From a virus (Duplodnaviria > Caudoviricetes), in IMG/VR virus record IMGVR_UViG_3300037423_002450, positions 1 through 36,535 of that record: DNA of 36,535 nucleotides; one strand, given 5' to 3'. Under the pieces are notes generated by a model that did not search any database, had not been told where the DNA came from, and was given only the letters and a program-made list of their open reading frames with translations. Below, in pieces: positions 120 to 34,341 of this stretch (its first letter is position 1; every line of letters starts with the position of its first letter). The position numbers and the translations under genes are program-made.

Positions 120-129
120 CGTGCTACCG
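120..129 (-). promoter_or_regulatory. Putative late promoter CGGTAGCACG, copy 1 (reads across the genome ends into terS/terL)
   Basis: Exact motif copy; GTG at 114 lies 5 nt downstream. Confidence 0.75.
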
Positions 130-144
130 ACGAGGGTGCGGTTT

Positions 145-711
145 TCAGCGCACGCCGAGCGCATCCGCGAGTCGGACCGCGTCGGTCGGGTCCATGCCCG
201 CGTCGAGCGCGGCCATGACCGGGTCGTCGCCGTCGGCCAGCGCCCGCACGACGCCGAGCGGGACCTCCATCTCCGCCGCGAGGTCCTCGAGCGCGCGACC
301 GGACACGGGGGTGATGCCGCCTTCCGCCCAGTCCTCGCCGACGTGGTCGCCGCCCCGCTCGTCGCGCAGCGAGGTGCGCTGGACGTGCTGCGGTCGGCAC
401 CGCGCCGACTCGGCCATGTTCCGCGTGATCGAGGACATGGCCATGAAGAGGTAGTTCGACAGGCTGCTGCGGTCGGGGTCGAACCGCGACTTGCCCTTCT
501 GCCGACGCAGCAGGCCCACGATCACGTCCTGGAAGCCGTCATCCTCGTCGATGCCCAGCCACCGCACCCGCACGTTGAAGCGCTTGTAGTAGATGCGCTT
601 CGCCAGCCCGTAGACCTCGGGGTCGTTCAGGTCGAGGCCCTTCGAGGGGGCGAGCGGGAGGCCGACGCTGCCCTGGTCCCGCCGGCTGGTGGAGGTGTCG
701 CGGCGGTTCAT
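145..711 (-). CDS. Phage-encoded sigma70/ECF-like factor (188 aa), probable late sigma
   Basis: Region-2-like segment DDGFQDVIVGLL..RFDPDRSSLSNYLFMAMSSITRN; C-terminal HTH-like LEDLAAEMEVPLGVV; SD GGAGGG before ATG 711. Confidence 0.7.
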   Translation of the reverse strand: MNRRDTSTSRRDQGSVGLPLAPSKGLDLNDPEVYGLAKRIYYKRFNVRVRWLGIDEDDGFQDVIVGLLRRQKGKSRFDPDRSSLSNYLFMAMSSITRNMAESARCRPQHVQRTSLRDERGGDHVGEDWAEGGITPVSGRALEDLAAEMEVPLGVVRALADGDDPVMAALDAGMDPTDAVRLADALGVR

Positions 712-719
712 GGAATTCC

Positions 720-1132
720 CTCCACGGTCCCGTGGTGGTGGCGTAGCACTGATAGACGGCGTCGAAGCACGCCGATTCCTCGGTGGTACGCTGGTGCTAC
801 GCAGTGGTACGCTACTTGCGTAGCACCGATAGACGAGGTTGAAGCGTTGCAGTTCGGCGGCTCCGCGGCGTGGTACGCGCCCGGCAGCACAATGGACCCG
901 TATAGGGACTCTCCCGAGACAGAGGTGGGCCGAGGTCGGCGACATGCCGGCTCTCCTCTCTCTCCACCCGAGGTCCCCCTAAATAGGTGTCCTCGAAACG
1001 CGTCGCGTAGCACGGGAAAATGCGACGAAAGCGACCTTTGAAACTCTACTGTCGGTGCTACGTGCGCGTACCACGGAAACGGCCGCTCGTGCGCCGTTTC
1101 CATAGGTTCAACGCCGATCGTCGGTACTACGC
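720..1132. other. Putative replication origin: about ten GTGSTACGC iterons in both orientations, lower GC
   Basis: Copies at 741, 783, 794, 804, 818, 870, 1005, 1055, 1066, 1124; 18-mer repeat 741-758/818-835; hairpin 1075-1101; directly downstream of the polymerase-helicase gene. Confidence 0.6.
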
Positions 1133-5736: not shown

Positions 5737-6219
5737 CTACCCGACCATCCGCGGCTTCGCCTCGACGTCCGCCCGGAGCTGCGCGAGCCGCTGCATCGCG
5801 GCGTCGATCTCGGCGAGGATGCCCGCGCGTTCGCCGTTCGTGAGCGCCGCCCCGCCCTCGCTCTTCGGGTCGGTCGCCGTCGCGACGGAATCCGCGAGCT
5901 GCCCGGTCGCGCGGGTGACCGCCGCGGCGACGCGCAGAAGGTCGCGCCCGCCCGCCTCACCCTCGGGCGCCTTCACGACGACGAAGCCGGCGATGGACGC
6001 GAGCTCGCCGAGCAGCGGCGTCGCGTCGTCCAGCTTCCGGATCAGCCGCGCGAGCACCCACACGGGCATCGACCGCTCGCCGGCGCGCCACCGCGGCACG
6101 TTCGACTTCTCCACGCCGGCCCAGTGGGCGATCTGCGCGTCGGTCAGGTGCGGGTAGGCGAGTCGGAGGTCGTCGAGGATGCGGCGCGAGGTGCCGTCGT
6201 CGGGGATGGGGCTGGGCAT
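5737..6219 (-). CDS. CII-like HTH regulatory protein
   Basis: HTH LTDAQIAHWAGVEKSNVPRWRAGER; helical C-terminus; downstream of cro; SD GGAG. Confidence 0.6.
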   Translation of the reverse strand: MPSPIPDDGTSRRILDDLRLAYPHLTDAQIAHWAGVEKSNVPRWRAGERSMPVWVLARLIRKLDDATPLLGELASIAGFVVVKAPEGEAGGRDLLRVAAAVTRATGQLADSVATATDPKSEGGAALTNGERAGILAEIDAAMQRLAQLRADVEAKPRMVG

Positions 6220-6240
6220 CGAGGTCTCCGTGGGGGCGGG

Positions 6241-6259
6241 TCGGCGGTGTCACCGCCGA
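6241..6259. promoter_or_regulatory. 19-bp palindrome TCGGCGGTG-T-CACCGCCGA upstream of the CII-like gene
   Basis: Perfect 9-bp inverted arms; overlaps a GTCACC half-site. Confidence 0.45.
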
Positions 6260-6466
6260 TGACAAGCGGGCGTGCGAGGTTGGAAACACACCGGAGCAAT
6301 GACGATGGGTTCGAACGGACGGACAAGGAGCGTTCCGCTGGCGACGTGGATCGCGGCGGTCGAGGTGCTCGAGGTGGAGGAGGTGCCGGCCCGTCAGCGG
6401 GGGCCGCTCCGCGTCGTCGACCCGCGCCTCGGTGGTGGTGGCCGAGGCGCTTGGTCGTCTGTCAAC

Positions 6467-6760
6467 TCAGGCGGCCGGGCGGAGCTCCGGACGGGGGTTC
6501 GGGCCGAGGATCTCGTCGTCGGCCGCGAGCTTCAGGGCGTGGATGCGCTCCCAGCCGGTGATCGACAGGACGTCGAGGAGCGCCACGAAGTGGCCGAGCG
6601 TGGGCGCCCGGCCGTGCTGCCAGTCGGGGTTGAACCAGCGGGAGACGGTCGCGACCGTGACGTCGACGTCGCGCGCGACGAGGCGCCGCTGCACGTCGGT
6701 GATAGACCAGCCGAGGCGCTCCCGGCGCTCGGAGAGGAAGAGGGCAAGCGAACGCTGCAC
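6467..6760 (-). CDS. Cro-like XRE HTH protein 1
   Basis: Small HTH (WSITDVQRRL..VTVATVSRW..PTL), divergent from repressor 1. Confidence 0.75.
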   Translation of the reverse strand: MQRSLALFLSERRERLGWSITDVQRRLVARDVDVTVATVSRWFNPDWQHGRAPTLGHFVALLDVLSITGWERIHALKLAADDEILGPNPRPELRPAA

Positions 6761-6763
6761 GTC

Positions 6764-6830
6764 GTCACCTCGCAGGCGACAGTGTCACCCGGAAGGTCAC
6801 ACCCTGTCAAGGGGTCGCCTGCGAGGTACG
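6764..6830. promoter_or_regulatory. Three 17-bp operator-like sites and a leftward TTGACA -35 (switch 1)
   Basis: GTCACC-N5-GGCGAC (6764), GTCACC-N5-GGTCAC (6784), GTCGCC-N5-GGTACG (6814); TTGACA on minus at 6805-6810. Confidence 0.65.
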
Positions 6831-6838
6831 TGGGCGCG

Positions 6839-7747
6839 ATGCCGCTCACGAGCGAGATCGGGTCACTACTACGTCGGGTCCGCGAGGACGCCGGACTCAC
6901 CCGCTCCGAGCTCTCCCGCCGGCTCGGCATCACCCTCACGCAGGTCTCCCGCATCGAGAGCGGTGAGCGTCAGCCGCCTCTCGACACGCTCGAAGCATGG
7001 GCGAACGCCTGCGACAGGTCGGTCCTGCTCGCGTTCCGACGCCCCGACGCCATGCCTGCGGGTGAGCACGAGGCCCTCGTCCAGGACATCATGAACATGC
7101 TCGGCGCCCTGACCAGGTCAGAGGTCGAGGTCGTCCACAAGTGCGTCGAGTCGATGCCGGAAAGTTCGGCGGAAGAGCGAGAGGAACTCCTCGCCCACCT
7201 GCGGAACATCCAGAACGCGAACGCGCTGGCCTGCAAGCAGCGGATGGACCTCATCACCGGAATCGACGACATCGACGAGGCGCTCGCCCGTGCCGAGAAC
7301 GCGATGGCTGCCGACGAAGTAGCCCTCGCCCGCTTGCGGGTGGACGCGGAGGCGACGTCAGGCAGCGCCCGGCGGGGCATCGAACTGGCCATGGAAAGCG
7401 TGCTCGGGTCGCTGCGAGAGAGCGCCGAGTACATCGAGCTTCTGAAGCGATTCCGGCGCCCCAAGGCCCTTCAAGAGATCGAGGTGGCCGTCCGCGAGGC
7501 CGACCAGGCAACGCACGCCGCGGCCGAAGCCCTTGCCGCGGCCGAGCACGAACTACGGCTCTTCGCCAGCACCGAGAGCACCATGCCGCAGCTCGAGTGG
7601 AGCGACGAGTTGCAGCGCCTCAACGGGCGCTATCGCGAGGCGCTCGCCGCGTGGGAGGCCGCCGAGCAGCGGCTCTGGCGCCTACAGCAGGAGAAGAAGG
7701 ACGCGGCCGAGGCCCCCCAGCCCCCAGCACGGTCGGGGCTGCCGTGA
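6839..7747 (+). CDS. CI-like XRE repressor 1 with long coiled-coil C-terminus (302 aa)
   Basis: N-terminal HTH LLRRVREDAGLTRSELSRRLGITLTQVSRIESGERQP. Confidence 0.8.
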   Translation: MPLTSEIGSLLRRVREDAGLTRSELSRRLGITLTQVSRIESGERQPPLDTLEAWANACDRSVLLAFRRPDAMPAGEHEALVQDIMNMLGALTRSEVEVVHKCVESMPESSAEEREELLAHLRNIQNANALACKQRMDLITGIDDIDEALARAENAMAADEVALARLRVDAEATSGSARRGIELAMESVLGSLRESAEYIELLKRFRRPKALQEIEVAVREADQATHAAAEALAAAEHELRLFASTESTMPQLEWSDELQRLNGRYREALAAWEAAEQRLWRLQQEKKDAAEAPQPPARSGLP

Positions 7748-7808
7748 CGGCCGCGCGGCCTCATCGCGACGTGCAGGCAAGATCGTGGATGAACGGGTGC
7801 CTGATGGC

Positions 7809-8078
7809 CTACGCCGCCCGGGTCCTCGTGATGTCCTCGACCCGCGAGCGCGCCAACTCGAGGCCGCGCAGTCGCTCCTCCGGCGACAGCCCGAGCGCCT
7901 CGACGAGCACGGCGTACTGGCCGAGCGTGGGGACACGGTTGAACCGCTCGGACTCCCAGAAGCGGAGGCTCGCCTCGGTGATGCCGGTGACCTCGGGAGC
8001 GACCTCCGCACACCGTCGGGCGAGCCCTCGACGAGAGGTCGTGCCGCGAGCGGCCGAGAGGAAGGCGCCGAACCGCAT
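7809..8078 (-). CDS. Cro-like XRE HTH protein 2 (paralog of 6467-6760)
   Basis: Shares R.PTLG....L...L.....ER...L.LA with Cro-1; divergent from repressor 2. Confidence 0.75.
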   Translation of the reverse strand: MRFGAFLSAARGTTSRRGLARRCAEVAPEVTGITEASLRFWESERFNRVPTLGQYAVLVEALGLSPEERLRGLELARSRVEDITRTRAA

Positions 8079-8123
8079 GGCTGAATCCTACACGCGTCTT
8101 GCAGGTACGCAAGGAAGTGATGC

Positions 8124-8936
8124 ATGGCCACGTCGCTGAAGGAGAAGAACGAGGAGCGAAGCCAGCGGTTCGAGCCGGTGATCGCGCGGGTCCGGCAGCT
8201 CCACGAGGACGCGATCGCGGCGGCCGAGCGAGAGCGGCAGGTGGAGTACGGCGAGGTCTGGCGCGCGGAGCGCACGCGGCCCGTGGATCGCCGTCGGATC
8301 GACCAGGCGCATGAGCAGCTCGCGCAGGCGCAGAAGGAGACGCTCGACCGCTACGCGGTCGCGAAGGACACGGCGGTGCACCTCGTCGAGTCGTTGAGCA
8401 ACGACCCTATGCATGACCACATCTTCGCGACGGCCTTCTCTCTCCTGCAGATCGTGCTCTCGGAGGAGCGCGAGCACGTCAGCCGAATCCGCGGTGCGTC
8501 GGCCGACGTGGAACTGCCCCCCGTGGGGCCGCTGCTGCGCGCGATGCGCATCCACGCGTACCGTCAGCCGACGGTCGGGTACTCGCTTCGCGAGCTCGGC
8601 GCGATCCTCGGACGGAGCGAGGGGGCGCTCCGGCACATCGAGTCCGGGCGCAACGAGCCACCATTCGACTTGGTCGCCCAGTGGGCCACCGCCTGCGGGA
8701 TGCGTCTCGACCTTCGCTTCGAGTCCACGGCATGGGGCGGCGAGGACATCAACCTCATCGAGATCCGGAAGCTCGTGTCGCTGCTCCCGGAGGACGGGCG
8801 GAGGACGATCCGAAACCTCGCGGACGCGTGGAGCAAGATGCCCGACGCGATTCGATGGGACCTCGAGAGGCGCGCCATGGACTACCTCGCAGACGCCCCA
8901 TGGCTGAACAGGCGGGAGGAGGATGACAACGAATAG
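8124..8936 (+). CDS. CI-like XRE repressor 2 with N-terminal helical extension
   Basis: Internal HTH LLRAMR..SLRELGAILGRSEGALRHIESGRNEPPFDLVAQWATAC, similar to repressor 1. Confidence 0.75.
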   Translation: MATSLKEKNEERSQRFEPVIARVRQLHEDAIAAAERERQVEYGEVWRAERTRPVDRRRIDQAHEQLAQAQKETLDRYAVAKDTAVHLVESLSNDPMHDHIFATAFSLLQIVLSEEREHVSRIRGASADVELPPVGPLLRAMRIHAYRQPTVGYSLRELGAILGRSEGALRHIESGRNEPPFDLVAQWATACGMRLDLRFESTAWGGEDINLIEIRKLVSLLPEDGRRTIRNLADAWSKMPDAIRWDLERRAMDYLADAPWLNRREEDDNE

Positions 8937-11950: not shown

Positions 11951-12343
11951 ATGGCCGACGGCTCCCACCGCCCCGCACCGCTGGCGACGACCGAGGAGGT
12001 CCTCGAGCACCTCCGCGTGTCGGCGCACACGCTGCGCGCGCTCATGGCGGACACGCCCGAGCACGTGCGCCGGCCGTGGCGGAACGTCGGCGTCGGCAGC
12101 CGGCCGTCGTATCGTTGGCGCCTCGTCGACGTGGAGTCCTGGCTCGAGGAGGTGGAGACGTGGCGTCGTACTCGAAGCGCGGCAACCGCTACCAGATCCG
12201 CTGGCGTGACCCCGACGGGACGAACCGCGGGTACTCCTGCCCCGACCTCACCACCACGAAGAAGATCGTCCGACAGATCGAGGAGTACAGCGCCCTCGGG
12301 CGAGTCTGGCGGAGTCCTCGCGAGGTTGAAGTCCCGTCGCTGA
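11951..12343 (+). CDS. xis: Excisionase / AlpA-like HTH protein
   Basis: LATTEEVLEHLRVSAHTLRAL..YRWRLVDVESWL; immediately upstream of and overlapping int. Confidence 0.65.
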   Translation: MADGSHRPAPLATTEEVLEHLRVSAHTLRALMADTPEHVRRPWRNVGVGSRPSYRWRLVDVESWLEEVETWRRTRSAATATRSAGVTPTGRTAGTPAPTSPPRRRSSDRSRSTAPSGESGGVLARLKSRR

Positions 12344-23500: not shown

Positions 23501-23778
23501 CAGTGCTCGGCGCCGTCGCCCTCGTACTTCCAGACGAGCCGGGCCTGGTCGATGCCGGGGTGCCCGCCGCGGATCGTCTTCACCCGGAGCTGGGCCGAGC
23601 TCGCCTGCGAGCCGCTCGCCTCGAGCACCATCTCCGTGTCCTGCTGCGCCTCGGGGACGCCCGGGCGCGAGCCGGCCTGCGTGAGGGTCGAGCTCGCCGA
23701 CGCGTACGCCGCCCACTTGAAGCGCGGGTCGGGGACGAGGAGACCGCGGAGGACGCTGGGGGTGGTGCCGCTGCCCAT
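20548..23778 (-). CDS. Large tail protein with Asp-box (BNR) beta-propeller (1076 aa)
   Basis: SDDAGTTW, SNDLGATF, SYDRGATW; follows the tape measure gene. Confidence 0.7.
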   Translation of the reverse strand: MGSGTTPSVLRGLLVPDPRFKWAAYASASSTLTQAGSRPGVPEAQQDTEMVLEASGSQASSAQLRVKTIRGGHPGIDQARLVWKYEGDGAEHWRGWDPPASLTGFEFVGHSNTAGKWKHPHALTLSDGTIAVAVGEDTQKTVVWTRDPSTGTWTLHEVYDPGAALSYTEPYPCLVQLTSGRLLCLFWTENGTSVQLRTYYSDDAGTTWLPAQKGCLDTALDATAQLPLRRRVVELNDQLALFVHVRDIATPEDQIWQYASNDLGATFDYVDALTGHNRGYPDAVVTDGKILVGYVTNFATTGSSYPPAWRELASAFQAISDANSGDLQTDADVMEWATESGGVFNSGDLAMWVDEDGVVYVMGRDHASTTFEASVRASYDRGATWADLGGGPAPSAGVSTWIGGDTATYPYDFAVCAHRGRAFVAHRFAANPGTADDSLAGFWLGGYTTVCLAQETSTAIGPNTVAGFTVTWLPYDDPANVSGWSATSTGTSALTSDGLHLTTGVGQTEMRTYANITGTLAQGVTALFECQLVTNQWRAEIIVNDGVSVEYEIACLVNAASIALHDSVSGLDVDSVPTTAGVDGKVQILVDVYSGKARMWYRPVGASGDRDWTEVGATAALTDRGSTTVVGHRLRFGQFDSSASYSTMACFSHGAYTEEHLYGQDNYSDLLGRCYTAEPIYVDGGTSIRAVDGPTFRNEDWNIDPVYDYGVENVFPDVAPSPRRRWRSTTDASNVEIAWELGDEATVPMGALVGIYLGDANFPQCELWGQNGAGIWTKVGDIDLRAQVNLKWTRNGRVVRPDTTGGSSVSYYLPTNILAGSRLELVTSGGEPAPAVRKIETNSAGKWESGSSSLQTRILLEEVDGTEATSGTGAALWIKDALAIVPMTATYKRWKLVIPAHTTAEGYFELGALVFGAFFPTGSYLMETAWGRGLEWAYDFEVTEGRTGIRNVRALGPARRAVEVSWVDGVETSPLALSSPNWILGWTSGGAVAVPADMPWSLPGLLDSIHGATTPVVYVGAISVPSSGSAVVTLTDRRMFVYGRVLSETVRVDNVQGGEGKDEILRIGQVRLEEEV

Positions 23779-23783
23779 GCGTC

Positions 23784-23793
23784 CGTGCTACCG
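23784..23793 (-). promoter_or_regulatory. Putative late promoter CGGTAGCACG (leaderless)
   Basis: Exactly 5 nt before ATG 23778. Confidence 0.8.
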
Positions 23794-23804
23794 ACCGAGG
23801 CCCG

Positions 23805-26006: not shown

Positions 26007-26698
26007 CAGCGACCTCCCATCCGACGCACGAAGTCACCGGCCATCGTCTTCGCCAGCGCCTTGATCTTCAGGCGCGCGGGCTTCCGGACGTAGTCGGCGA
26101 GGAGGTACCCGGTGCCCGGGTCGGCGACGACCTTCCCCTGCGCGGCGCCGGCGGCGAGCACGTACCACTTCGCCGGGTCGAGTCCTTCCCCGTTGCGCTT
26201 CCCGTCGCGCTTCTTCCCCCACCAGGGATCGCCCGGGGGCGGCAGCACGGGCAGGTCCTTCCGCTTCCACGCCCACCATTCCGCCTGCTCGACGGCCTTC
26301 GCACGGAGCGTCGTGCGCCACGGGCGGTGCACGAAGGCCGCCAGCGGGACGGTGCGCCCGCCGGCCACGCGCTTCTTCCCGCCGTTGGCCCCGGACCCGC
26401 CGAGCTTCCCCGCCTGCACCGTGCGGGTGTCGACGCTGCCGACGCCGACGCGGACCTCGTCGCGGCTCGCGTCCACGGTCGTGACGACCTCGATGTCGCC
26501 TGACTTCCCGGTGCGACGCGTGACGCCCATGCCCCCGTACCAGGCGGCCTCGGCGTCGTCGGCGATCTCCTGCGCGCCCCCTTCGAGCTTCGCGACGGCG
26601 GTGGCGTTCGCCGCCTCCATCGCCCGGCGCACGTGCCCCTCGAGGTCACCGTGGAGCACGACCGTCGTGTTCCCCTCGCGGTAGCGGGTGATCGGCAT
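26006..26698 (-). CDS. Putative neck / tail-completion (HK97 gp10-like) protein
   Basis: Basic protein, RRTG motif after an N-terminal helix; tail module. Confidence 0.45.
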   Translation of the reverse strand: MPITRYREGNTTVVLHGDLEGHVRRAMEAANATAVAKLEGGAQEIADDAEAAWYGGMGVTRRTGKSGDIEVVTTVDASRDEVRVGVGSVDTRTVQAGKLGGSGANGGKKRVAGGRTVPLAAFVHRPWRTTLRAKAVEQAEWWAWKRKDLPVLPPPGDPWWGKKRDGKRNGEGLDPAKWYVLAAGAAQGKVVADPGTGYLLADYVRKPARLKIKALAKTMAGDFVRRMGGR

Positions 26699-26703
26699 CG
26701 GCC

Positions 26704-26713
26704 CGTGCTACCG
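26704..26713 (-). promoter_or_regulatory. Putative late promoter CGGTAGCACG (leaderless); its TAG is also the stop of the frameshifted chaperone
   Basis: Exactly 5 nt before ATG 26698. Confidence 0.8.
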
Positions 26714-26914
26714 CCGCCGGCCCCGCTCGAGGGCGGCGGCGCGCCGCCGCATCTCCTTCTCGAGCTCGGCCGCCTCGTAGCGCTCCCACGCCATCATGAG
26801 CGCCTGGTCCTCGCGCGGGAGCTTCGAGAACCAGTGCACGTCGCCGTTGCCGAACCGGAGCGAGAGCCGCAGCGCCGTGCGGACTACGTGCCCGTTCCGG
26901 CCTCGGATTTTCCC
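26708..26914 (-). CDS. -1 frameshift extension of the tail assembly chaperone (gpGT-like)
   Basis: Slippery G GGA AAA at 26914-26908; -1 frame open to TAG 26708. Confidence 0.75.
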   Translation of the reverse strand, partial: GKIRGRNGHVVRTALRLSLRFGNGDVHWFSKLPREDQALMMAWERYEAAELEKEMRRRAAALERGRRR

Positions 26915-27261
26915 ATCGCGGCCTGGACCTCCTTCTCGCGCGGGAAGGTCGCCTCGAGCAGCTCGGGGAAGAGCTGGCTCGCCGCGCCGATGATGTCCTC
27001 GACCGCCCAGCCCTTCTCGCGGAGCGCCGCGTACACCTCGCCCCCGTACTCGGCGAGGTCGCCGCGGACGCTGGCGCTCACGCCCGACCGGACGCCGAAG
27101 GCGACCTCGGGGACGCAGGCCGCGACCATCGCCGCGGAGGCGCGCGCGAGCGGGACGCCCCCGCGCTTCGCCTTCGCGTTGTAGGTGAGGACGAGGTCCT
27201 CGCGGACGTCGACGGGCGGCAACTCGACCGCGAAGTCGCGGCCCTTGATCTGGATCTTCAT
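26884..27261 (-). CDS. Tail assembly chaperone (gpG-like)
   Basis: Follows the tail tube gene and ends just after the slippery site. Confidence 0.75.
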   Translation of the reverse strand: MKIQIKGRDFAVELPPVDVREDLVLTYNAKAKRGGVPLARASAAMVAACVPEVAFGVRSGVSASVRGDLAEYGGEVYAALREKGWAVEDIIGAASQLFPELLEATFPREKEVQAAMGKSEAGTGT

Positions 27262-27290
27262 GGAGCGTCCTCTCTACGAAGCGGGGCGGA

Positions 27291-27818
27291 TCAGGTGAGC
27301 GTCGACCAGTCCGTCGCCGCGGTGCCGTACGGCAGGCCGGTGCCCTTCAGCGAGAACTGCGAGGGGTCGCCCTCGGCGAAGTCGAGCTCGAACATGACGT
27401 ACTTGTAGGTCACGACGTTGTCGTTCGTGCCCGAGAAGTTCGTGCGCTCGACCGTCCAGCTCCACTGCAGCGTGTAGATGTCGCCCCCCGAGACCGGGAA
27501 CGTGGACGTCGCCGTGCTCCACAGTCCCTTCTGCATGATGGCCTCGAAGAGCGTCGCGGTCGTGCCGTCGCCGAGGAAGTGCACGGCGTCGGCCGTGAAC
27601 TCGATCCCGAACTCCTTGTCCTCGGTGTTGCGACCCGCGTAGATGATCCCCCGGCTCTTGTAGATCTTCCGGTCCTTCTGGGCGTTGTTCAGGCCGGTGA
27701 TCTTGATGGCGCCGTTGGTGTAGAGGACCGTCAGCGTCTTCGGCGTCCCCGCGGTGCCGTCGGTGAGCGTCATGACGCCGTCGCGCGGGATGATCGGGGT
27801 CGCTGCGTTGCCAGGCAT
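27291..27818 (-). CDS. Major tail tube protein
   Basis: 175 aa, Thr-rich, beta-type; directly precedes the chaperone. Confidence 0.7.
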   Translation of the reverse strand: MPGNAATPIIPRDGVMTLTDGTAGTPKTLTVLYTNGAIKITGLNNAQKDRKIYKSRGIIYAGRNTEDKEFGIEFTADAVHFLGDGTTATLFEAIMQKGLWSTATSTFPVSGGDIYTLQWSWTVERTNFSGTNDNVVTYKYVMFELDFAEGDPSQFSLKGTGLPYGTAATDWSTLT

Positions 27819-27841
27819 GGGGAAGCCTCGGGAGTCGCCGT

Positions 27842-27851
27842 CGTGCTACCG
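27842..27851 (-). promoter_or_regulatory. Putative late promoter CGGTAGCACG (leadered)
   Basis: 23 nt before the tail tube ATG, with SD GAGG in between. Confidence 0.8.
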
Positions 27852-27863
27852 GCGGGCGCGGGC

Positions 27864-28280
27864 CTACTGCAGGGTGAAGCGGTGGCCGACCTCGAACGTG
27901 GCCGTGCCGAGGACCCACCCGTCCACCGTCGCCCGGCGGGTGAGGCGCTTCACGAGCACGTGCTTCGTCGAGATCGCCACGACCTTCTTCACGAGGTCCT
28001 GCTCGGCGTCCGTGGCCGCGTCGTAGTCGCCGTTCTGCGCGTCGGCGCGCAGCCGGTGCGCCCACTGGACCTCGATCGTCGAGTACACGAGCGCGCCCTC
28101 GGAGAGGCCCTGCCGCCCGTCGCGCACCTCGGTCGTCGGGACACCCACCGCGAAGGAGTGGTGCAGGAGTGAGTCGGTGTCCCGGCCGAACAGCTCGGGC
28201 GCGAACCGGCTCTGCGTCCACCCCGAGAGGGTGCGGATGGCCGCCACGACGAGCGCGCGGATGGTCGCGATGTCGGCCAT
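27864..28280 (-). CDS. Putative tail terminator
   Basis: 138 aa, just upstream of the tail tube gene. Confidence 0.55.
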   Translation of the reverse strand: MADIATIRALVVAAIRTLSGWTQSRFAPELFGRDTDSLLHHSFAVGVPTTEVRDGRQGLSEGALVYSTIEVQWAHRLRADAQNGDYDAATDAEQDLVKKVVAISTKHVLVKRLTRRATVDGWVLGTATFEVGHRFTLQ

Positions 28281-29029
28281 CAGTCGAACCCGCCCAGCCA
28301 GACCGACGGGTTGCCCGCGCGCTTGCGCCGCCCGTCGGAGGCGCCGGCGTCCGTCGCGTCGTACTCGAACACGAGGCCGTCCCACGCGTCCTTGAACTGC
28401 GCGCGGTAGTCGTCGGCCTTCTCCTTCCAGGTCTCGTTGAGCGTCGTCCGGAGGTGCTCGAAGACGAGCGCGAGCGTGAGGAGCAGGAGCGGCTCGCGCA
28501 GCGCGCTCGGCTCCATGACCAGGTTCCAGATCGACCCCTTTCCGGCGAGCCGCCCGTGGATGGTGACGACGGCCTCGTCGATGAAGTCCTGGAAGTCCGT
28601 CAGCGCCGAGATGGGAGCCGCCCCGTTCGGGTCGAGCGCGCCCTCGCGGCGGAAGAGGTCGGGGTCGGCCACCACGGGGAAGAACGCCGCCTTCACGAGC
28701 CCGGCCGCGTTCCGCACCACCTTCGTCTTCCCGTTGACGACGAGGCTCCACTCGACGCGCCAGCCCATCCCGCGCGAGCGCGTCGTCGGCACGAGGGCCG
28801 CCGCGAGCGTGTACGTGGGGATGCCGTCGTCGTCGACGGTGACGGCCGCGGCGTCGACGACGACCGTGCCCGAGGCGTCGTACACCGACACCGTCGAGCC
28901 CGCCTCGGTGACGGCGACGATCGCGCCGTTCTGCCAGAGGGGGCAGGACAGGTCGTTGTCCTGCCCCTGCACCAGGTAGTTCGGCATCAGGAGCCGGGCC
29001 GTGATGAAGCTGGTCTCCGCGCCGCTCAT
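28280..29029 (-). CDS. Putative head-tail adaptor
   Basis: Beta-rich N-terminus plus helical adaptor-like C-terminus; synteny. Confidence 0.55.
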   Translation of the reverse strand: MSGAETSFITARLLMPNYLVQGQDNDLSCPLWQNGAIVAVTEAGSTVSVYDASGTVVVDAAAVTVDDDGIPTYTLAAALVPTTRSRGMGWRVEWSLVVNGKTKVVRNAAGLVKAAFFPVVADPDLFRREGALDPNGAAPISALTDFQDFIDEAVVTIHGRLAGKGSIWNLVMEPSALREPLLLLTLALVFEHLRTTLNETWKEKADDYRAQFKDAWDGLVFEYDATDAGASDGRRKRAGNPSVWLGGFD

Positions 29030-29034
29030 GCCGC

Positions 29035-29044
29035 CGTGCTACCG
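29035..29044 (-). promoter_or_regulatory. Putative late promoter CGGTAGCACG (leaderless)
   Basis: Exactly 5 nt before ATG 29029. Confidence 0.8.
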
Positions 29045-29052
29045 GCGGGGGC

Positions 29053-29937
29053 CTACCAGCCCAGCCACGTGTTCGCGGCCGAGTCGAGGCACACGAGCAC
29101 GACGCCCTTCCCCGAGGCGCTGCCGAAGGCCGCGTTCGCCGCGCCGCCGTTGATCGAGCCGCCGGCCGGCGGGTAGACCTTCAGGATCTTGTTCGCCACG
29201 CCGTTGCCGATGAAGATCATCCGGCCGGTGACCTTGTCGGAGGCGTGCACGATCACGCCCTTCGTGTCGTCCGCGCCGGTCGTCGGGTAGACGCGCCCGG
29301 TGCCGGCCGGCAGCGCCGCGGCGTCGGCGTTCGTCGAGCCGGCGGCCGCGGTGCTGCCGCCCAGCGCGAGCGGCGCGTCGATGTCGTCCACGAGCTCGGC
29401 CGTGCCGCTCCCGGTGAAGCGCGGGCGCTTGTTGGCCGCCGAGGCGAGGCCGGCCAGCGCGTCGAGCTCGGCGTCGTGCGCCTGCACGTCCGTGCCGATC
29501 ACGAGGCCGAGCGTGGTCCGCTGGGCCGCCGCGTTCGCGTCGTCGACGAGCGCGCGGCCCGCGGCGGTGAAGTCGGCGAGGGAGGCGGTGCCCGAGCCCG
29601 TGAAGTAGGGCAGCTTGTCCGCCGCGCTGGTGAGCCCCGCGATCGCCGCGAGCTCGGCGTCCGCGATGGCGTTCACGAGCGCGTTCCAGGTCGTGCCGCC
29701 GTTGTGCGTGATGTACACCGCGTCGGTCGGGCCGCTCGCGTCCTCACGGAGGTAGAGCATCGTCGCCGAGCTGTCCCGGCCGTAGCCGCCGCTCGGCGCG
29801 CCCGTGCCGGCGATGATCTCGACGTAGGCGGCGGAGCTCGCGTCGCGCGCGTCGGAGACGCGGAGGAAGCCGACCTTGATCCCCTTCGGGGTGATGTTCT
29901 CGGCGAGGCGGGGAGGATTCGAGGGGGTCTCGGCCAT
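29053..29937 (-). CDS. Fibre-repeat protein in the head module (head fibre / decoration?)
   Basis: Two DAEL.A.AGL.SAA.K.P.FTGSGTA repeats; SD GGAG. Confidence 0.6.
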   Translation of the reverse strand: MAETPSNPPRLAENITPKGIKVGFLRVSDARDASSAAYVEIIAGTGAPSGGYGRDSSATMLYLREDASGPTDAVYITHNGGTTWNALVNAIADAELAAIAGLTSAADKLPYFTGSGTASLADFTAAGRALVDDANAAAQRTTLGLVIGTDVQAHDAELDALAGLASAANKRPRFTGSGTAELVDDIDAPLALGGSTAAAGSTNADAAALPAGTGRVYPTTGADDTKGVIVHASDKVTGRMIFIGNGVANKILKVYPPAGGSINGGAANAAFGSASGKGVVLVCLDSAANTWLGW

Positions 29938-29979
29938 CGTGCACTCCGGGTGGAGCACCGCCGTGGAGGCGGCACGGCC

Positions 29980-29989
29980 CGTGCTACCG
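29980..29989 (-). promoter_or_regulatory. Putative late promoter CGGTAGCACG (leadered)
   Basis: 42 nt before ATG 29937. Confidence 0.75.
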
Positions 29990-30003
29990 ACGGCCGCGAG
30001 GCC

Positions 30004-30198
30004 CTACCGCTTCCCCTCGTCGCGGAGCTTCCGGTCGGTCCGGAGCATCGACTCGCGCGCCACGCGCTGCGCGTCCTTCGGCTTCGTGCCCGACGCGATG
30101 AGATCGCGGGCGACGCGGTCCATGACCTGCCGATCGCCCGGCCGCTCGCCGCCGCTCGCCGGCTGCGCCGGTCGGTTCCGGGGGTCTCGCTCGTTCAC
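30004..30198 (-). CDS. Small basic hypothetical protein
   Basis: GTGA overlap, 64 aa. Confidence 0.55.
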   Translation of the reverse strand: MNERDPRNRPAQPASGGERPGDRQVMDRVARDLIASGTKPKDAQRVARESMLRTDRKLRDEGKR

Positions 30199-30938
30199 GC
30201 CTTCTTCTCCTTCGCGCTCGTCTCGCCCTCGCCCTCGCCCTCGCCCGGGTCCTCCTCGAGCGTCCGCTTCGCGTTCCGCTTCGGGGCGACCTTCTCGCCC
30301 CTCGCCTTGCGCAGGTACGTCTCGAGCACCGCGATCTCCGCCTCGGCCGCTTCGACGCGGAACGCGTGCGTGCCGGCGCCGTTGCTCCGCGCGAGGATCT
30401 GCTGGGCGATCGCGAGCTTCTTCTTCGCCTTCGTGAGCAGCGTCGCCGCGACGTCGTACGGGCAGGGCGGGAGCTTCCCGCTCGAGACGAGCGAGTCGAG
30501 CCACGCGGCGTAGGCTTCCTGGTCGGTCTCGGTCTTCGCGGACCCGACCGTGGCGGTCTCGAACACGGAGATCCACGCCTCGGCGATCTCGTCCCGCCCG
30601 CCCGGCTTCGTCTCGACGACGTTCATGTACGACTCACCGTCGGGCGCCCACTCGTAGGGGATGACGCGGCGGCCCTGCGTCTCGAGCTTCGCGCGCACGT
30701 TCGCGAACAGGACCTTCCCGTCGCGGATGGCGATGCCGTTCACGCCGGCCTTCATCTGCTGGATCGACAGCGCGGGGACCAGGCGGCCGCCGATCACCTG
30801 CCAGCGGCGCGGGTGGAAGATCCAGATGAACTGCGGGGAGTCGAGCAGGAAGGGGTGCGTGAGTCCGGTCGCCGAGGTGGCGAAGTCGGGCGTCCGCTTC
30901 GGGTCACGGGTCGCGGGGGCGCTGGTGCGTTCGGCCAT
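30195..30938 (-). CDS. Hypothetical late protein (247 aa)
   Basis: Strong SD GGAGAGGA, codon bias. Confidence 0.75.
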   Translation of the reverse strand: MAERTSAPATRDPKRTPDFATSATGLTHPFLLDSPQFIWIFHPRRWQVIGGRLVPALSIQQMKAGVNGIAIRDGKVLFANVRAKLETQGRRVIPYEWAPDGESYMNVVETKPGGRDEIAEAWISVFETATVGSAKTETDQEAYAAWLDSLVSSGKLPPCPYDVAATLLTKAKKKLAIAQQILARSNGAGTHAFRVEAAEAEIAVLETYLRKARGEKVAPKRNAKRTLEEDPGEGEGEGETSAKEKKA

Positions 30939-30950
30939 GGGTCCTCTCCG

Positions 30951-30990
30951 AAAACGAGAACGGGTCGCTCCGTGCTACCGGAGCGACCCG
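30951..30990 (-). terminator. Intrinsic terminator after the major capsid gene, with the late promoter motif at its apex
   Basis: 12-bp stem CGGGTCGCTCCG/CGGAGCGACCCG, loop GTAGCA, followed by TTCTCGTTTT. Confidence 0.75.
30971..30980 (-). promoter_or_regulatory. Putative late promoter CGGTAGCACG (leadered)
   Basis: 32 nt before ATG 30938. Confidence 0.75.
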
Positions 30991-31066
30991 CATCGAGGAC
31001 GCAGAAGGCCCGCGGAAACCGGAGAGGACGCTCGTGGACGTCCGCGGGCCCGCTGCGCCAGCTCGG

Positions 31067-31969
31067 CTACGCGACGCGCGACTTCACGGTCTGGCCGGCG
31101 TTGTCGATCGCCTTCGCGGCGCCGATGATGCAGGCGAACGTGTAGTCGGTCATGAGGCCGCGGGAGCGGCGCTGCTCCTCGAGGCGGGCGCGCCCGAGGG
31201 TGAACGAGTCGCGCACCGCCGGGAGCGGGGCGTCCGCCCACGCGATGCCGCCGCGCCCGAGGATGCAGCCGGCGTGGTTGACGCCGGCGTCCGAGGTCGG
31301 CACGCGCGTCGACGTGAAGAAGTCGATCGACCCGTAGTTGCCCTTCGCGGACTCGAGGCCCTTGTTGATCACGCCGTTGAGCGTGAGCGCCGGGGCGAAG
31401 CCGAGCGAGAGCGTGTCGACCTCGAGGTCGCCCCACTGCTCGGGGTGCAGCTCCGCGAGGAGCGCGCCCGTGACGTCGCGCATCGCGAGCTGCGTCTTCG
31501 TGTCGATGACGTCCGCCCAGGTGAGCGCGCTCCCGGCGTTGCCGCCGATGTCGGTGAAGTCGTCGCCGATGTTGGCGAGGACGTCGATGAGCGTCTGCGC
31601 GTAGGTGATCGCGAGGTCCTCGGCGAACTTCGCCTTCCCGAGCATCCCGGCCGCGAGGTACCCGGCGAAGTCGTCGAGGGTGTAGACCTTCGACTTCGGG
31701 GCGATCGTCACCTCGGTCGCGTCGGTGGTGAGCGCCGTCGACGCCTTCTCCGCGCCCGGCGTGTGGTCCGTCATCAGGTTGTACCCGCCGAGCCCGACGT
31801 GCGGCACGCGCACGACGTTGCTGTTCGGCGCGCTCGCCTGCGCGTAGAACCACGCGGGGTGCGTGAGCACGCTCCCGTCGCGGGCCGCGAGGAGCATCAG
31901 GAACTCGGTCGACACGACCTCGTCCGCCATGAGGTCGGCGATGGCGGAGGGAGTGATCTCGTTGGCCAT
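31067..31969 (-). CDS. Major capsid protein
   Basis: 300 aa after portal and scaffold; LHPEQW.DL HK97-fold-like segment; own promoter, SD and terminator. Confidence 0.8.
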   Translation of the reverse strand: MANEITPSAIADLMADEVVSTEFLMLLAARDGSVLTHPAWFYAQASAPNSNVVRVPHVGLGGYNLMTDHTPGAEKASTALTTDATEVTIAPKSKVYTLDDFAGYLAAGMLGKAKFAEDLAITYAQTLIDVLANIGDDFTDIGGNAGSALTWADVIDTKTQLAMRDVTGALLAELHPEQWGDLEVDTLSLGFAPALTLNGVINKGLESAKGNYGSIDFFTSTRVPTSDAGVNHAGCILGRGGIAWADAPLPAVRDSFTLGRARLEEQRRSRGLMTDYTFACIIGAAKAIDNAGQTVKSRVA

Positions 31970-31995
31970 GGGGCGCTCCGTTCGGTGAGTCGCCC

Positions 31996-32005
31996 CGTGC
32001 TACCG
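31996..32005 (-). promoter_or_regulatory. Putative late promoter CGGTAGCACG (leadered)
   Basis: 26 nt before the capsid ATG, SD GGAG. Confidence 0.8.
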
Positions 32006-32032
32006 GCGTCCGCGGAGGCCCCTCCGCGCACC

Positions 32033-32629
32033 CTACTTCTCGAGCCCCAACCGCTTGCGCACGTCCTTCCACGCCGCCCAGTTGCCCGTCCGGACGGCCT
32101 CGTCGCGGGCCTTGCGGACCTCGTCGGCCGTCGGCTGCCCGGGCGCGCCCGGAGTCTGCGTGCCGCTGCCGACGACCTTCGGCTGCACCTTCCCGGCACC
32201 GCCGCCGTTGCCGCCGCCGGCGAGCCACGGGCGGAGGATCGCCGGCGCCTCCTCGGGCTTCGCCTTCAGCGACTCGACCCACGCCTTCCGCGCGGGGCGG
32301 TCCTTCTCGGGGAGCGCGCCGTACTTCGACTCGAAGCTCTCGATCACGTCGGTGTCGGTCGTGCCGAGCGCGCCCGAGAGCTCGGTGAACACGGCGAAGC
32401 GGTTGGTCGCCGCCTCGGCCTTCCCCTTCCACTCGTTGAGTTGCGTCGTGAGCACGTCCACGGTGGCGCCGCGCTCGGTCGCCTTCTGCAGCTCACCCTT
32501 CAGCCGCGCGACCTCGGCGTCGGCCGCGTTCTTCGCGGTGACCGTCGCCTGGTAGGTCTCGTAGGGGATCGGCTGCGCGCCGCCCCCTCCACCGCCTCCA
32601 CCCCCGCCGTTGCCGCCGCCTTCGTTCAT
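32033..32629 (-). CDS. Capsid scaffolding protein
   Basis: Coiled coil, Gly-rich linkers, basic C-terminal helix; between portal and capsid. Confidence 0.7.
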   Translation of the reverse strand: MNEGGGNGGGGGGGGGGAQPIPYETYQATVTAKNAADAEVARLKGELQKATERGATVDVLTTQLNEWKGKAEAATNRFAVFTELSGALGTTDTDVIESFESKYGALPEKDRPARKAWVESLKAKPEEAPAILRPWLAGGGNGGGAGKVQPKVVGSGTQTPGAPGQPTADEVRKARDEAVRTGNWAAWKDVRKRLGLEK

Positions 32630-32643
32630 CGAGGTCCTCTCCG

Positions 32644-34326
32644 CTACCCTTCCGTGCTACCGCCGGCCGACGGATTTTCCGGAGCGGTCGGCGCCTGACC
32701 CGCGGCGGCGTTCGCCGCCTTCGCGACCACGGCGGCGTGCTTCGCCTGGTACTCGGAGACGGTGAGCTTCCCGTCCTCGCCACCGATGGGCGCGAGCCCC
32801 TGCGCCGCGCGCGCCTCGTCGACGGTGACGATCGACGCGATGTCGGTCGACGTGAGCGCGATCGACGGCTGGCTGGGCTCCGGCGCGGTGGGCGCGCCCG
32901 CGCCCGGGCCGGCCGCCGGCGTCGGCTCCGCGGGCTCGAACTGCGCGTTCACCGCCTCGATCTTCTTCAGCGCCTCGAGCGCCTCCCGATCGTCCAGCCC
33001 CGGGTGGAGCTGCCTGTACGCGGAGACCTTGTCGATGAGCCCGAGCTTCAGCAGACCCTCCATCCGCGCGAGCTCGGCCGCGAGCTCGGCGGGGTCGCGC
33101 GGCAGGCTCTTGTACTCGATGCGCCAGCCGTCGACGGGGCCTCCGCGGAGGCCCGACACGAGCCGGAGGAGGCGGATGTCGCTGCGCCGGAACACGGGCG
33201 CGTAGGCGCGCTGCGCGTCGCGCTGCGCCTCGCGGCTCACGGCCAGTGACATCGCGGAGCGCACGTCGCTCTCCCGGCGGCTCACGCCCACCGTCGAGAG
33301 CGCCATCTCGACGAGGCGCCGCTCGTAGCGCTCGATCGCGGCGAAGAAGCGGTCCGGGTCGACGGGCGCGCCCCACTGGCCGACCTGGATGCTGTTCTGC
33401 CCGACGGCGTCCTCGATCGCCTTCAGGATCACAAGCGTCGCCGGGTCGGCGACGGCCTCCTTCCGGCGACCGTCCTCCTCGACGTCGCCCTGATCCGGCG
33501 CAGCGCCCGCGGCCCATCGCTGCGCCCAGCTCGCCTGCCGCAGCGCGTGGCCGAAGAACGAGTAGTACACGCCGAGCTGCAGGGCGCCCTCGAACACCTC
33601 GCGCCCGGTGTACGGGTCGAGCGCGTAGCCGGTCTCCGCCGCGTGGTAGGCGACGTAGGGGAGCACGGGCTTGCCCTGCACGAGGAAGGGGTAGTTCTCG
33701 CCGGAGAAGTCCTCGTGCCCGTCCTTCCCGAGGACGCGGGCCGTCACGTCGAAGCCCCGGTCGTCGCGCGCCACGTAGAGCCGCTTCCGCGGGTCGCACA
33801 CGAGCTGCACCCACTTCGTCGGGTCGTCCGGGTCCTCGATCCACTCGGCGAGGGCGAGCGGCTGCGCAGGCGAGAGCGGCGAGGAGACGACGCTCACGAG
33901 GTCGGGGAACACGAGCCGGAACGCGGGGGCGCCGTTGTCGTCGAGGTCGACGCGGACGAACATGTCGTTCAGGCCGATGCAGTCGCGCTGGTTCCGCTGC
34001 GCGAGCTGCCAGAAGCCGGCCTCGAGGACGGCCTCCGCGGTGTCCTCGCCGCCGGCCGGCGGGTTGATCTCGGGGATGTCGCGGTAGAGCCCGGCGAGCT
34101 GGCTCGTCACGTACCAGGCCGGGTTCGCCGTCATGTCGACGATGCGCACCGCCTTCGCGCGCGTGGTCCCGATCGCCTTCACGAGGCGGGACTCCACGTC
34201 GGGGTGGTGCATCGAGTACATGACCCGACGCCGGAGGCGGGTGTGCTCGACGCGAGCGGCCTCGGCCGCGCTCTTCGGCGCCGGCGGGGCGGGGAGCGGC
34301 GGGGGCGCGGTGTCGTCGGCGAACAT
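32644..34326 (-). CDS. Portal protein
   Basis: 560 aa directly after terL; C-terminal TVDEARAAQGLAPI.G motif. Confidence 0.8.
   Translation of the reverse strand: MFADDTAPPPLPAPPAPKSAAEAARVEHTRLRRRVMYSMHHPDVESRLVKAIGTTRAKAVRIVDMTANPAWYVTSQLAGLYRDIPEINPPAGGEDTAEAVLEAGFWQLAQRNQRDCIGLNDMFVRVDLDDNGAPAFRLVFPDLVSVVSSPLSPAQPLALAEWIEDPDDPTKWVQLVCDPRKRLYVARDDRGFDVTARVLGKDGHEDFSGENYPFLVQGKPVLPYVAYHAAETGYALDPYTGREVFEGALQLGVYYSFFGHALRQASWAQRWAAGAAPDQGDVEEDGRRKEAVADPATLVILKAIEDAVGQNSIQVGQWGAPVDPDRFFAAIERYERRLVEMALSTVGVSRRESDVRSAMSLAVSREAQRDAQRAYAPVFRRSDIRLLRLVSGLRGGPVDGWRIEYKSLPRDPAELAAELARMEGLLKLGLIDKVSAYRQLHPGLDDREALEALKKIEAVNAQFEPAEPTPAAGPGAGAPTAPEPSQPSIALTSTDIASIVTVDEARAAQGLAPIGGEDGKLTVSEYQAKHAAVVAKAANAAAGQAPTAPENPSAGGSTEG
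32653..32662 (-). promoter_or_regulatory. Putative late promoter CGGTAGCACG (leadered; inside the last portal codons)
   Basis: 23 nt before the scaffold ATG, SD GGAGAGGA. Confidence 0.75.
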
Positions 34327-34331
34327 CGCGT

Positions 34332-34341
34332 CGTGCTACCG
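34332..34341 (-). promoter_or_regulatory. Putative late promoter CGGTAGCACG (leaderless)
   Basis: Exactly 5 nt before ATG 34326. Confidence 0.8.

What the first reader, a model, noticed from the sequence alone, without database searches (positions are those of the whole stretch)
120..34341. Invariant 10-mer CGGTAGCACG before 11 late genes: a gene-by-gene, -10-only late promoter system
Seen: exact plus-strand CGTGCTACCG starts at 120, 19869, 23784, 26704, 27842, 29035, 29980, 30971, 31996, 32653 and 34332. All copies are in the same orientation and all are immediately upstream of minus-strand late genes. I saw none inside early genes. A rough composition estimate gives about 0.1 chance copies per strand. 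The consensus extends to CG-N-CGGTAGCACG in 9 of 11 copies, and I see no shared sequence at the -35 position. Most late genes lacking the motif overlap the upstream stop codon. Known: lambdoid temperate phages use one antiterminated late promoter, whereas -10-only late promoters are known from T4 gp55. Inference: this small temperate phage gives nearly every structural unit its own phage-specific promoter.
Basis: partly seen in the sequence, partly recalled or inferred. Interest (0 to 1): 0.92.

Follow-up and report, generated by a model that had tools for sequence, protein, structure and literature searches.

The report
Mini-sigma late promoters of myxobacterial phages
A small integrating bacterial virus repeats one ten-letter DNA word in front of its head and tail gene blocks and carries a shortened sigma factor beside its packaging genes, which likely reads that word as a one-box late promoter, a T4-like strategy also seen here in its uncultured relatives from myxobacteria.

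Summary
In detail: 11 exact copies of CGGTAGCACG, all on the late strand (chance 0.12). Five lie 5 nt before a start codon and have no Shine-Dalgarno sequence. Five lie 23-42 nt upstream with one in between. One precedes terS across the circular junction. No -35 conservation and no shared hairpin were found. This pattern fits a -10-only promoter (T-12, A-11, C-7), with five mRNAs predicted leaderless.

ORF 145-711 encodes a sigma70 region-2 protein with no recognisable sigma4. Twelve other phages or prophages pair a homologue with a late-strand GGTA-core motif; five host genomes tested carry Myxococcota markers. Six relatives (three complete) lack both gene and motif. One relative with an intact sigma2+sigma4 factor has a two-box promoter instead.

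'Gene-by-gene' is overstated: 11 sites serve 25 late ORFs. The strategy is known (T4 gp55, phiEco32 gp36). The variant is a likely ECF-derived mini-sigma in small temperate phages, with no gp33/gp45 detected. Some family members, though not this one, end in a beta-clamp-like motif. No transcript or binding data exist.

The parts
120..129 (-). Motif copy; predicted terS-terL promoter, 173-nt leader across the circular junction
   Evidence: orthologous sites 106-141 nt before terS in G001, G004, G006
34332..34341 (-). Motif copy 5 nt before the ATG of the putative portal gene (34326); predicted leaderless
   Evidence: same placement in G001, G004, G006, G438, L036, L039
32653..32662 (-). Motif copy in the last codons of the putative portal, 23 nt before the putative scaffold gene (32629), with SD
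31996..32005 (-). Motif copy 26 nt before the putative major capsid gene (31969), with SD
30971..30980 (-). Motif copy 32 nt before ORF 30938, with SD; lies in the loop of a terminator-like hairpin
30960..30991 (-). 13-bp terminator-like hairpin after the putative capsid gene, enclosing the motif; same arrangement in G001 and G004
29980..29989 (-). Motif copy 42 nt before ORF 29937 (tail-fibre-like PHROG hits), with SD
29035..29044 (-). Motif copy 5 nt before ATG 29029; predicted leaderless
27842..27851 (-). Motif copy 23 nt before ORF 27818 (putative tail tube, by position), with SD
26704..26713 (-). Motif copy 5 nt before ATG 26698; predicted leaderless; its TAG is the stop of the upstream frameshift ORF
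23784..23793 (-). Motif copy 5 nt before ATG 23778 (1076-aa BNR-repeat protein, after the tape measure gene); predicted leaderless
19869..19878 (-). Motif copy 5 nt before GTG 19863; predicted leaderless; heads 8 ORFs including the muramidase
145..711 (-). 188-aa sigma70 region-2 protein (P0001) with an acidic four-helix C-terminal domain; predicted late sigma factor
35837..36466 (-). Putative small terminase (by position; 54-61% identical in G001, G004, G006, L034)
34353..35840 (-). Large terminase
14033..34326 (-). Late (head, tail, lysis) gene array served by ten of the sites
11951..13287 (+). Excisionase-like gene and tyrosine integrase (temperate lifestyle)
5737..8936 (.). CII-like and several Cro/CI-type HTH genes (lysogeny switch region)
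741..1132 (.). Four 26-32-nt repeats in both orientations containing CGTAG(C/T)AC; a separate element, likely replication-origin iterons
36526..36535 (.). 10-bp repeat of bases 1-10: circular junction

Best explanation
The word CGGTAGCACG is likely the single recognition box (an extended -10 element, C-15 G G T-12 A-11 G C A C-7 G) of eleven late promoters, and it is likely read by host RNA polymerase carrying the phage's own shortened sigma factor encoded at 145-711. Shown: the copies, their strand, spacing and Shine-Dalgarno partition; the lack of upstream conservation; the sigma region-2 homology; the gene's place at the end of the replication genes just before terS; and co-occurrence of gene and motif in relatives. 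Inferred: after induction the sigma gene is made late in the early transcript. Its region 2 docks on the host beta' clamp helices, recognises CGG upstream and flips out A-11 and C-7, and starts RNA about 12 nt after the T. Five mRNAs would then begin at their start codon and the rest carry short SD leaders. A -35 contact is not needed, since relatives with 126-135-aa proteins use the same or nearly the same word. The factor likely descends from a two-domain ECF sigma that lost or degraded sigma4.
For: Spacing: 5 of 11 sites have ATG/GTG exactly 12 nt after the T and no SD; 5 of 5 sites 23-42 nt upstream have an SD; +1 is a purine in 10 of 11.

Profile: over 31 hand-picked sites in four phages, -15..-11, -8 and -7 are invariant (they were also the selection pattern), -10 varies, -9 is C or A in 30 of 31, and nothing from -65 to -19 exceeds 0.23 bit. 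This parallels the ECF sigma-L -10 consensus T-12 G-11 N C/A A G-7 with C-G upstream (PMC6372665, passages).

Protein: Pfam Sigma70_r2 E=0.028 and TIGR02937 E=5e-6 for P0001. 22 of 30 homologues hit Sigma70_r2 (13 over the cut-off) and 0 of 30 hit region 4. Model residues 25-108 match sigma2 domains at Z 6-7.2, rmsd 2.3-3.8 A. Atlas score 0.95.

Co-occurrence: a homologue plus a late-strand GGTA-core motif in G001, G002/G004, G006, G431, G438, G460, G461, G503, G504, G506, G507 and G527. Neither in G505, G515, G516 (complete) or G511, G512, G517, G518 (partial, some read only in part).

Contrast: L043 has a sigma2+sigma4 factor over the TIGR02937 cut-off and three TGAGCCGATC-N13-CGTA sites.

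Not a host word: 366 CGGTANNAC in the 10.4-Mb host genome against 1818 for the reversed control, but 8 on the late strand of its 33-kb prophage.
Against: No transcript, 5' end or binding is shown. P0001 alone scores below the Pfam and NCBIfam cut-offs, and the top fold hit was a non-sigma (3t38, Z 7.5), tied with the sigmas. P0001 keeps a C-terminal helical domain that weakly resembles sigma4 (Z up to 4.0, tied with unrelated folds), so it is not strictly sigma2-only. G446 has a 119-aa homologue but no clear motif in the part held, and G433 (another phage type) has a homologue and no motif. G507 shows only 2 sense against 2 antisense matches. In G006, G446 and G461 the sigma gene is not next to terS. 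Per-phage motif variants were chosen after looking, so their chance figures are not corrected for that. The sigma4/two-box contrast rests on one phage and three sites. Kin share traits, so co-occurrence is not independent evidence of a functional link.
Confidence: 0.85

Rival explanations
1. The word is a promoter, but is read by a host alternative sigma, or by host holoenzyme with a separate phage activator; the sigma-like ORF does something else, such as acting as a decoy on core polymerase.
For: The GTA core resembles host ECF -10 boxes (PMC6372665). Several small early ORFs have no assigned function. G446 has the gene without a clear motif.
Against: The -10..-6 letters differ from phage to phage within one host order, which a fixed host sigma would hardly allow. 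The word is under-represented in the host genome. There is no conserved upstream site at -22 to -55 as used by Lpa, Ogr or Mu C. Relatives without the gene lack the word.
Confidence: 0.08
2. The word acts in RNA: an endonuclease site, an antitermination hairpin or a non-canonical ribosome-binding signal inside one long late transcript.
For: It is strictly on the sense strand; five copies are 5 nt before a start codon; its ends (CG...CG) can pair; one copy sits in the loop of a 13-bp hairpin conserved in three phages.
Against: Over 34 sites, pairing around the motif equals that of shuffled flanks (mean z 0.12, none above 2). Copies farther from the start keep a normal SD, and orthologous copies lie 79-141 nt from the start. 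This reading does not explain the link with a sigma gene or the two-box form in L043.
Confidence: 0.04
3. The word is a double-stranded operator for a phage repressor or replication protein that silences late genes, related to the repeats at 741-1132.
For: GTAGCAC also occurs five times at 743-1061, in both orientations; the genome has several HTH genes.
Against: The 741-1132 repeats have another 5' context (CGTAG, not GGTAG), a 26-32-nt conserved body and mixed orientation. G001 has the same 10-mer but no reverse GTAGCAC in its 16-kb locus. The fixed 11-13-nt distance to start codons points to initiation.
Confidence: 0.03

Closest known systems
T4 gp55 and T4 late promoters (PMC2988020, passages and first part of the introduction; PMC7892883, search listing only)
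   Same: Small phage sigma with similarity confined to domain 2; many one-box promoters about one turn upstream of +1; no -35 conservation.
   Different: GC-rich CGGTAGCACG instead of an 8-bp TATA box; ECF-like rather than gp55 sequence; no gp33 or gp45 hit among 42 ORFs; 36.5-kb temperate genome instead of a large lytic one; no clamp-binding tail on this protein.
phiEco32 gp36 and phage 7-11 sigma (PMC12276001, PMC4331800; passages)
   Same: Phage-encoded distant sigma homologue that reads a short word centred near -11.5 in front of middle and late genes.
   Different: Those are lytic 77-kb-class podophages with AATGTA and a gp79/anti-sigma helper; no such helper was identified here; the word and protein family differ.
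ECF (group 4) sigma factors, e.g. M. tuberculosis sigma-L (PMC6372665, passages)
   Same: Region-2 sequence (TIGR02937) and the -10 pattern T-12, x-11, N, C/A, A, x-7 with G just upstream; relative L043 is a full two-domain ECF-type factor with a two-box promoter.
   Different: No recognisable sigma4 helix-turn-helix and no -35 box in this phage and its closer kin.
Late activators of temperate phages: P2 Ogr, P1 Lpa, Mu C, RinA (PMC3152322, PMC12867686; passages); lambda Q and phiC31 phage-specific promoters (recalled, no paper retrieved)
   Same: Temperate phage; regulator gene placed just before terS; several late promoters in P2, P1 and Mu.
   Different: Those work with host sigma70 and bind upstream (-22 to -55) or antiterminate; here the conserved word is the -10 box itself and the regulator is a sigma homologue.

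Membership tests
sigma70 family / ECF group 4 | Region-2 (sigma2) domain | tested here: met
   Pfam E=0.028, TIGR02937 E=5e-6 (below cut-offs); 22 of 30 homologues hit, 13 over the cut-off; fold Z 6-7.2 to sigma2
sigma70 family / ECF group 4 | Region-4 helix-turn-helix | tested here: inconclusive
   No region-4 HMM hit in P0001 or 30 homologues; C-terminal four-helix model matches sigma4 domains at Z 3.2-4.0, tied with unrelated folds; 11 D/E against 4 K/R in the last 55 aa; no room for it in the 119-135-aa relatives
sigma70 family / ECF group 4 | Two-box (-35 plus -10) promoter | tested here: not met
   No conservation upstream of -18 in 31 sites, nor a shared 5-mer in 9 of 10 phages tested; met only in L043
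sigma70 family / ECF group 4 | Binds core RNA polymerase and directs initiation | not testable with these tools
   Needs biochemistry; the complex-prediction queue was full
T4 gp55 late system | One-box late promoter without -35 | tested here: met
   (by sequence only)
T4 gp55 late system | 8-bp TATA box consensus | tested here: not met
   The motif is CGGTAGCACG; T4 consensus per PMC2988020
T4 gp55 late system | gp55 sequence family | tested here: inconclusive
   Only a generic sigma PHROG at E=0.029; no PDB sequence hit to a sigma with P0001; chain F of the gp45-dependent complex at Z 6.0, rank 27, tied with other sigmas
T4 gp55 late system | gp33 co-activator, gp45 clamp and a C-terminal clamp-binding epitope | tested here: not met
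   No such hit among 42 ORFs at E<=0.05 (divergent forms could be missed); P0001 tail lacks the motif
phiEco32 gp36 system | AATGTA promoter word | tested here: not met
phiEco32 gp36 system | gp79 helper protein | not tested
   No direct search with gp79
Activator-dependent late promoters (Ogr, Lpa, Mu C, RinA) | Conserved activator site at -22 to -55 | tested here: not met

The most novel reading that the evidence does not exclude
Temperate phages of uncultured Myxococcota have re-evolved the T4 late-transcription design from an ECF sigma. Sigma4 and the -35 box were lost together, the -10 box was lengthened and retuned phage by phage, and part of the family gained a C-terminal QxxLF tail that would tether the mini-sigma to the host beta clamp (5 of the 64 closest sequences against 1 of 488 controls), coupling late genes to replication without gp33 or gp45. 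The 119-135-aa members would be natural stand-alone single-domain sigma factors with orthogonal 10-bp promoters.
Probability: 0.3. Interest if true: 0.75.

Novelty: new variant of a known kind. Interest (0 to 1): 0.5.

Why it matters
The family offers a set of matched pairs: about a dozen very small sigma factors, each with its own -10 word sharing a GGTA core, plus one relative that retains sigma4 and a -35 box. That makes two questions testable: how little of a sigma factor suffices for specific initiation, and which region-2 residues set the -10..-6 letters. It also places a gp55-like strategy in small temperate phages of a host group with no cultured relative in the GenBank phage set searched. 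The strategy itself is known, and this scan already holds 45 notes matching the same search words, which limits the surprise.

Tried and rejected
Searches that found nothing useful:
- Word-index search with P0001 returned only itself; the family appeared only in the HMMER search of 1.84 billion representatives (199 hits).
- Single-protein scans of viral contigs with the capsid and terminase proteins, and one with the narrow sigma alignment, gave no loci.
- A 15-base pattern scan of viral contigs gave 22 loci; 21 held a single copy of the 10-mer and one held two in opposite orientations, so they were treated as chance and not used.
- No tblastn match for P0001 or terL in 50,697 GenBank phage records.
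- No Rfam match and no sigma70 consensus promoter in the window.
- No RNA holder was listed for 28000-36500, so no 5' ends could be examined.
- The complex prediction (sigma2 with the host beta' clamp helices) never ran because the queue was full; no verdict.
- Foldseek gave no match at E<=0.001 for either model; no family could be named for the C-terminal domain.

Readings rejected:
- Hairpin-loop element.
- Stop-codon context: the TAG is a gene's stop at only 1 of 11 sites.
- Ribosome-binding signal.

Rows left out of counts:
- G380, a host-type two-domain ECF outside a phage.
- G003 and G007, where the sigma position lies off the contig and no clear motif was seen.
- G005, G524, L034, L036, L039 and L040, which have a motif but are fragments without a sigma gene.
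- Of 66 new capsid loci, those of 7 kb or more (47, leaving out two already held) were analysed, and 25 records were searched whole.
- The phylum-wide sample found the family in 1 of 401 genomes at E<=1e-15; the order-wide search in 8 of 154 at E<=1e-8.

Nine literature searches listed no paper on this phage group or motif. The library lacks most subscription journals, and no supplements were read.
Full report
Observation. CGGTAGCACG occurs 11 times, at exactly the stated coordinates, always on the minus strand; shuffles give 0.12 and never 11. The record is a 36,535-base virus contig, 72% GC, whose first and last ten bases are identical, so it closes to a circle. It encodes a tyrosine integrase, an excisionase-like protein, CII-like and Cro/CI-type regulators, a polymerase-primase/helicase fusion, a terminase, a tape measure protein and a muramidase. 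It is therefore a temperate tailed phage. Portal, scaffold, capsid and tail-tube labels are by position and synteny, not by database hits.

Anatomy of the sites. My gene caller gives 25 late ORFs from terS (36466) to 14033. Ten have the motif within 45 nt, and the split is clean. Five have the start codon 5 nt after the 10-mer and no Shine-Dalgarno sequence (34326, 29029, 26698, 23778, 19863). Five have it 23-42 nt away and all five carry GGAG/GAGG. ATG or GTG occupies 2.2% of positions, so five at one offset is not chance. Numbering those start codons +1 puts the motif at C-15 G G T-12 A-11 G C A C-7 G-6, and the same position is a purine at 10 of 11 sites. The eleventh copy (120) lies 15 nt after the stop of ORF 145-711 and 173 nt before terS across the junction. 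The last site heads eight ORFs, so this is one promoter per block rather than per gene. Nothing is conserved in the -35 zone, and there is no common hairpin (34 sites, mean z 0.12). The exception is the copy after the capsid gene, which sits in the loop of a terminator-like stem here and in two relatives.

ORF 145-711 (P0001, 188 aa) scores weakly as Sigma70_r2 and TIGR02937. It has 199 homologues among 1.84 billion representatives. Of 30 close ones scanned, 22 hit region 2 and none region 4, and many are only 100-135 aa long. The AlphaFold model (pLDDT 83.8) matches sigma2 domains over residues 25-108 at Z 6-7.2, with one non-sigma tied at the top. The C-terminal 60 residues form a four-helix, strongly acidic domain with only weak, non-specific likeness to sigma4. 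I read it as a decayed sigma4; this is inference. The gene closes the leftward replication region directly before terS, the place of Q- or RinA-type regulators (Q recalled; RinA from PMC3152322).

Relatives. Terminase and capsid alignments and a sigma profile gave related phages. G001 has the same 10-mer (7 sense, 0 antisense for CGGTAG[CA]ACG in 20 kb) and a 135-aa homologue; G004 has CGGTA[CT]CAC (8 and 0) and a 129-aa homologue. G006 is a 33.4-kb prophage between tRNA-Pro repeats in a 10.4-Mb genome. It has 8 CGGTANNAC on the late strand and 1 opposite, and the only strong sigma-family match of that genome lies inside it. In the same bacterial order, 8 of 154 genomes match the profile. Of the seven besides G006, four are syntenic phages with a motif: G431 CCCGGTAGGT (6/0), G461 CGGTAGGG (6/0), G460 CTCGGGTAG (3/0) and G438 CCGGTAnGG (5/0). 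G446 has the gene but no clear motif, G433 is another phage type without a motif, and G380 is a host-type ECF. All five host genomes tested carry 18-41 MYXO-CTERM matches against 0 of 14 control genomes, which points to Myxococcota; the window's own host is inferred from this.

Among 25 further virus records, five hold the gene, and each shows a GGTA-core word: G503 4/0, G504 4/1, G506 4/1, G507 2/2, and G527 with four CGGTAGCAC copies. Seven records re-examined with a broader profile showed neither gene nor repeated word; three are complete (G505, G515, G516) and two were read only to 20 kb. The other negative records are fragments and say little. The near-leaderless site before the portal gene recurs with T-to-start distances of 11-13 in G001, G004, G006, G438, L036 and L039. 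It also appears at the matching distance from the capsid gene in five more records (gene identity inferred). One relative, L043, encodes a 170-aa factor with region 2 and a region-4-type helix-turn-helix. It has instead three intergenic late-strand TGAGCCGATC-N13-CGTA sites, the only one of ten phages with a shared upstream word. That is the expected contrast, but it is a single case. Variants were picked after inspection; the fixed CGGTA core in non-coding DNA is sense-biased in most, not all, loci.

Mechanism. Most likely the phage protein replaces the host sigma on core polymerase and reads one extended -10 box. The register matches ECF sigma-L, which flips bases -11 and -7 and has the consensus T-G-N-C/A-A-G with C-G upstream (PMC6372665, passages). 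Shown are sequence, placement, homology and co-occurrence. Core binding, base flipping, start sites, timing and leaderless translation are inferred. Rivals (host sigma or activator, RNA element, operator) are each contradicted by at least one test listed above.

Comparison and novelty. It works like T4 gp55: a sigma confined to domain 2, with one-box late promoters and no -35 (PMC2988020). It also works like phiEco32 gp36 (PMC12276001; PMC4331800). It is not a member of the T4 system (different word, no gp33 or gp45 detected) and fails the two-box test for a normal ECF. Several late promoters in a temperate phage are known from P2, P1 and Mu. What differs is a sigma-based, one-box version in small temperate phages of uncultured myxobacteria, with sigma4 absent or decayed and the word varying by phage. 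A side result raises the ceiling: 5 of the 64 closest family sequences end in Q-x-x-[LM]-F within the last 22 residues, against 1 of 488 control proteins (a relaxed pattern written after seeing the tails gives 10 of 64 against 3 of 488). This resembles the QL[SD]LF clamp-binding consensus that Mu C uses for late transcription (PMC12867686, passages). P0001 lacks it, and those homologues have no genomic context here. Nine literature searches listed nothing on this group; earlier unreviewed notes of this scan describe similar sigma-plus-motif phages in other groups.

Verdict: a real feature, most likely the late-promoter system of a phage-encoded mini-sigma (0.85); new variant of a known kind; interest 0.5.

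Noticed in passing
window 741-1132: Four 26-32-nt repeats (two per orientation) plus shorter GTGGTACGC repeats between the replicase gene and the sigma gene; they share GTAGCAC with the promoter word. Likely origin iterons; whether the shared core is functional is unexplained.
   Followed up: partly
proteins P0021, P0031, P0037, P0049, P0055 (also P0015, P0017, P0027, P0072, P0073): Sigma-family homologues ending in beta-clamp-binding-like motifs (QLCLF, QLMLF, QAQLF, QIGLF, QCSLF); absent from the window's protein.
   Followed up: partly
window 1133-4330 (-): 1065-aa fusion of a family-A polymerase-like N-terminal part with a DUF927/Cch-type primase-helicase.
   Followed up: no
window 30960-30991 (-); L053:9416-9453; L057:6966-7001: The promoter word lies in the loop of the terminator-like hairpin after the capsid gene in three phages, so read-through would stop where a new transcript starts.
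   Followed up: partly
window 26908-26914 (-): G GGA AAA slippery site at the end of ORF 27261-26884; the -1 frame is open to the TAG inside the 26704 motif, as in tail-chaperone frameshifts.
   Followed up: yes
window 36466-36535; L053, L061, L034 before terS: A conserved C/G run followed by A5-6 and AAAGT(T/C) just upstream of terS, a candidate packaging site.
   Followed up: no
L043:8547, 11465, 13536: Two-box late promoter candidates TGAGCCGATC-N13-CGTA with a two-domain ECF-type phage sigma at L043:7347-7859.
   Followed up: yes
G006:C5:411736-445170: Prophage bounded by tRNA-Pro repeats, with its sigma gene moved to the attL end; the genome record is titled Alphaproteobacteria but carries 41 MYXO-CTERM matches.
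   Followed up: yes
L152 (G503): Sigma homologue with a long C-terminal extension that looks by eye like a winged helix; C-terminal parts vary widely across the family.
   Followed up: no
L030 (G005) and L096 (G524): Fragments with motif variants CGGTAGGTC (6 sense, 0 antisense) and CGGTAGCAG (4, 0) but no sigma gene in the DNA held.
   Followed up: partly
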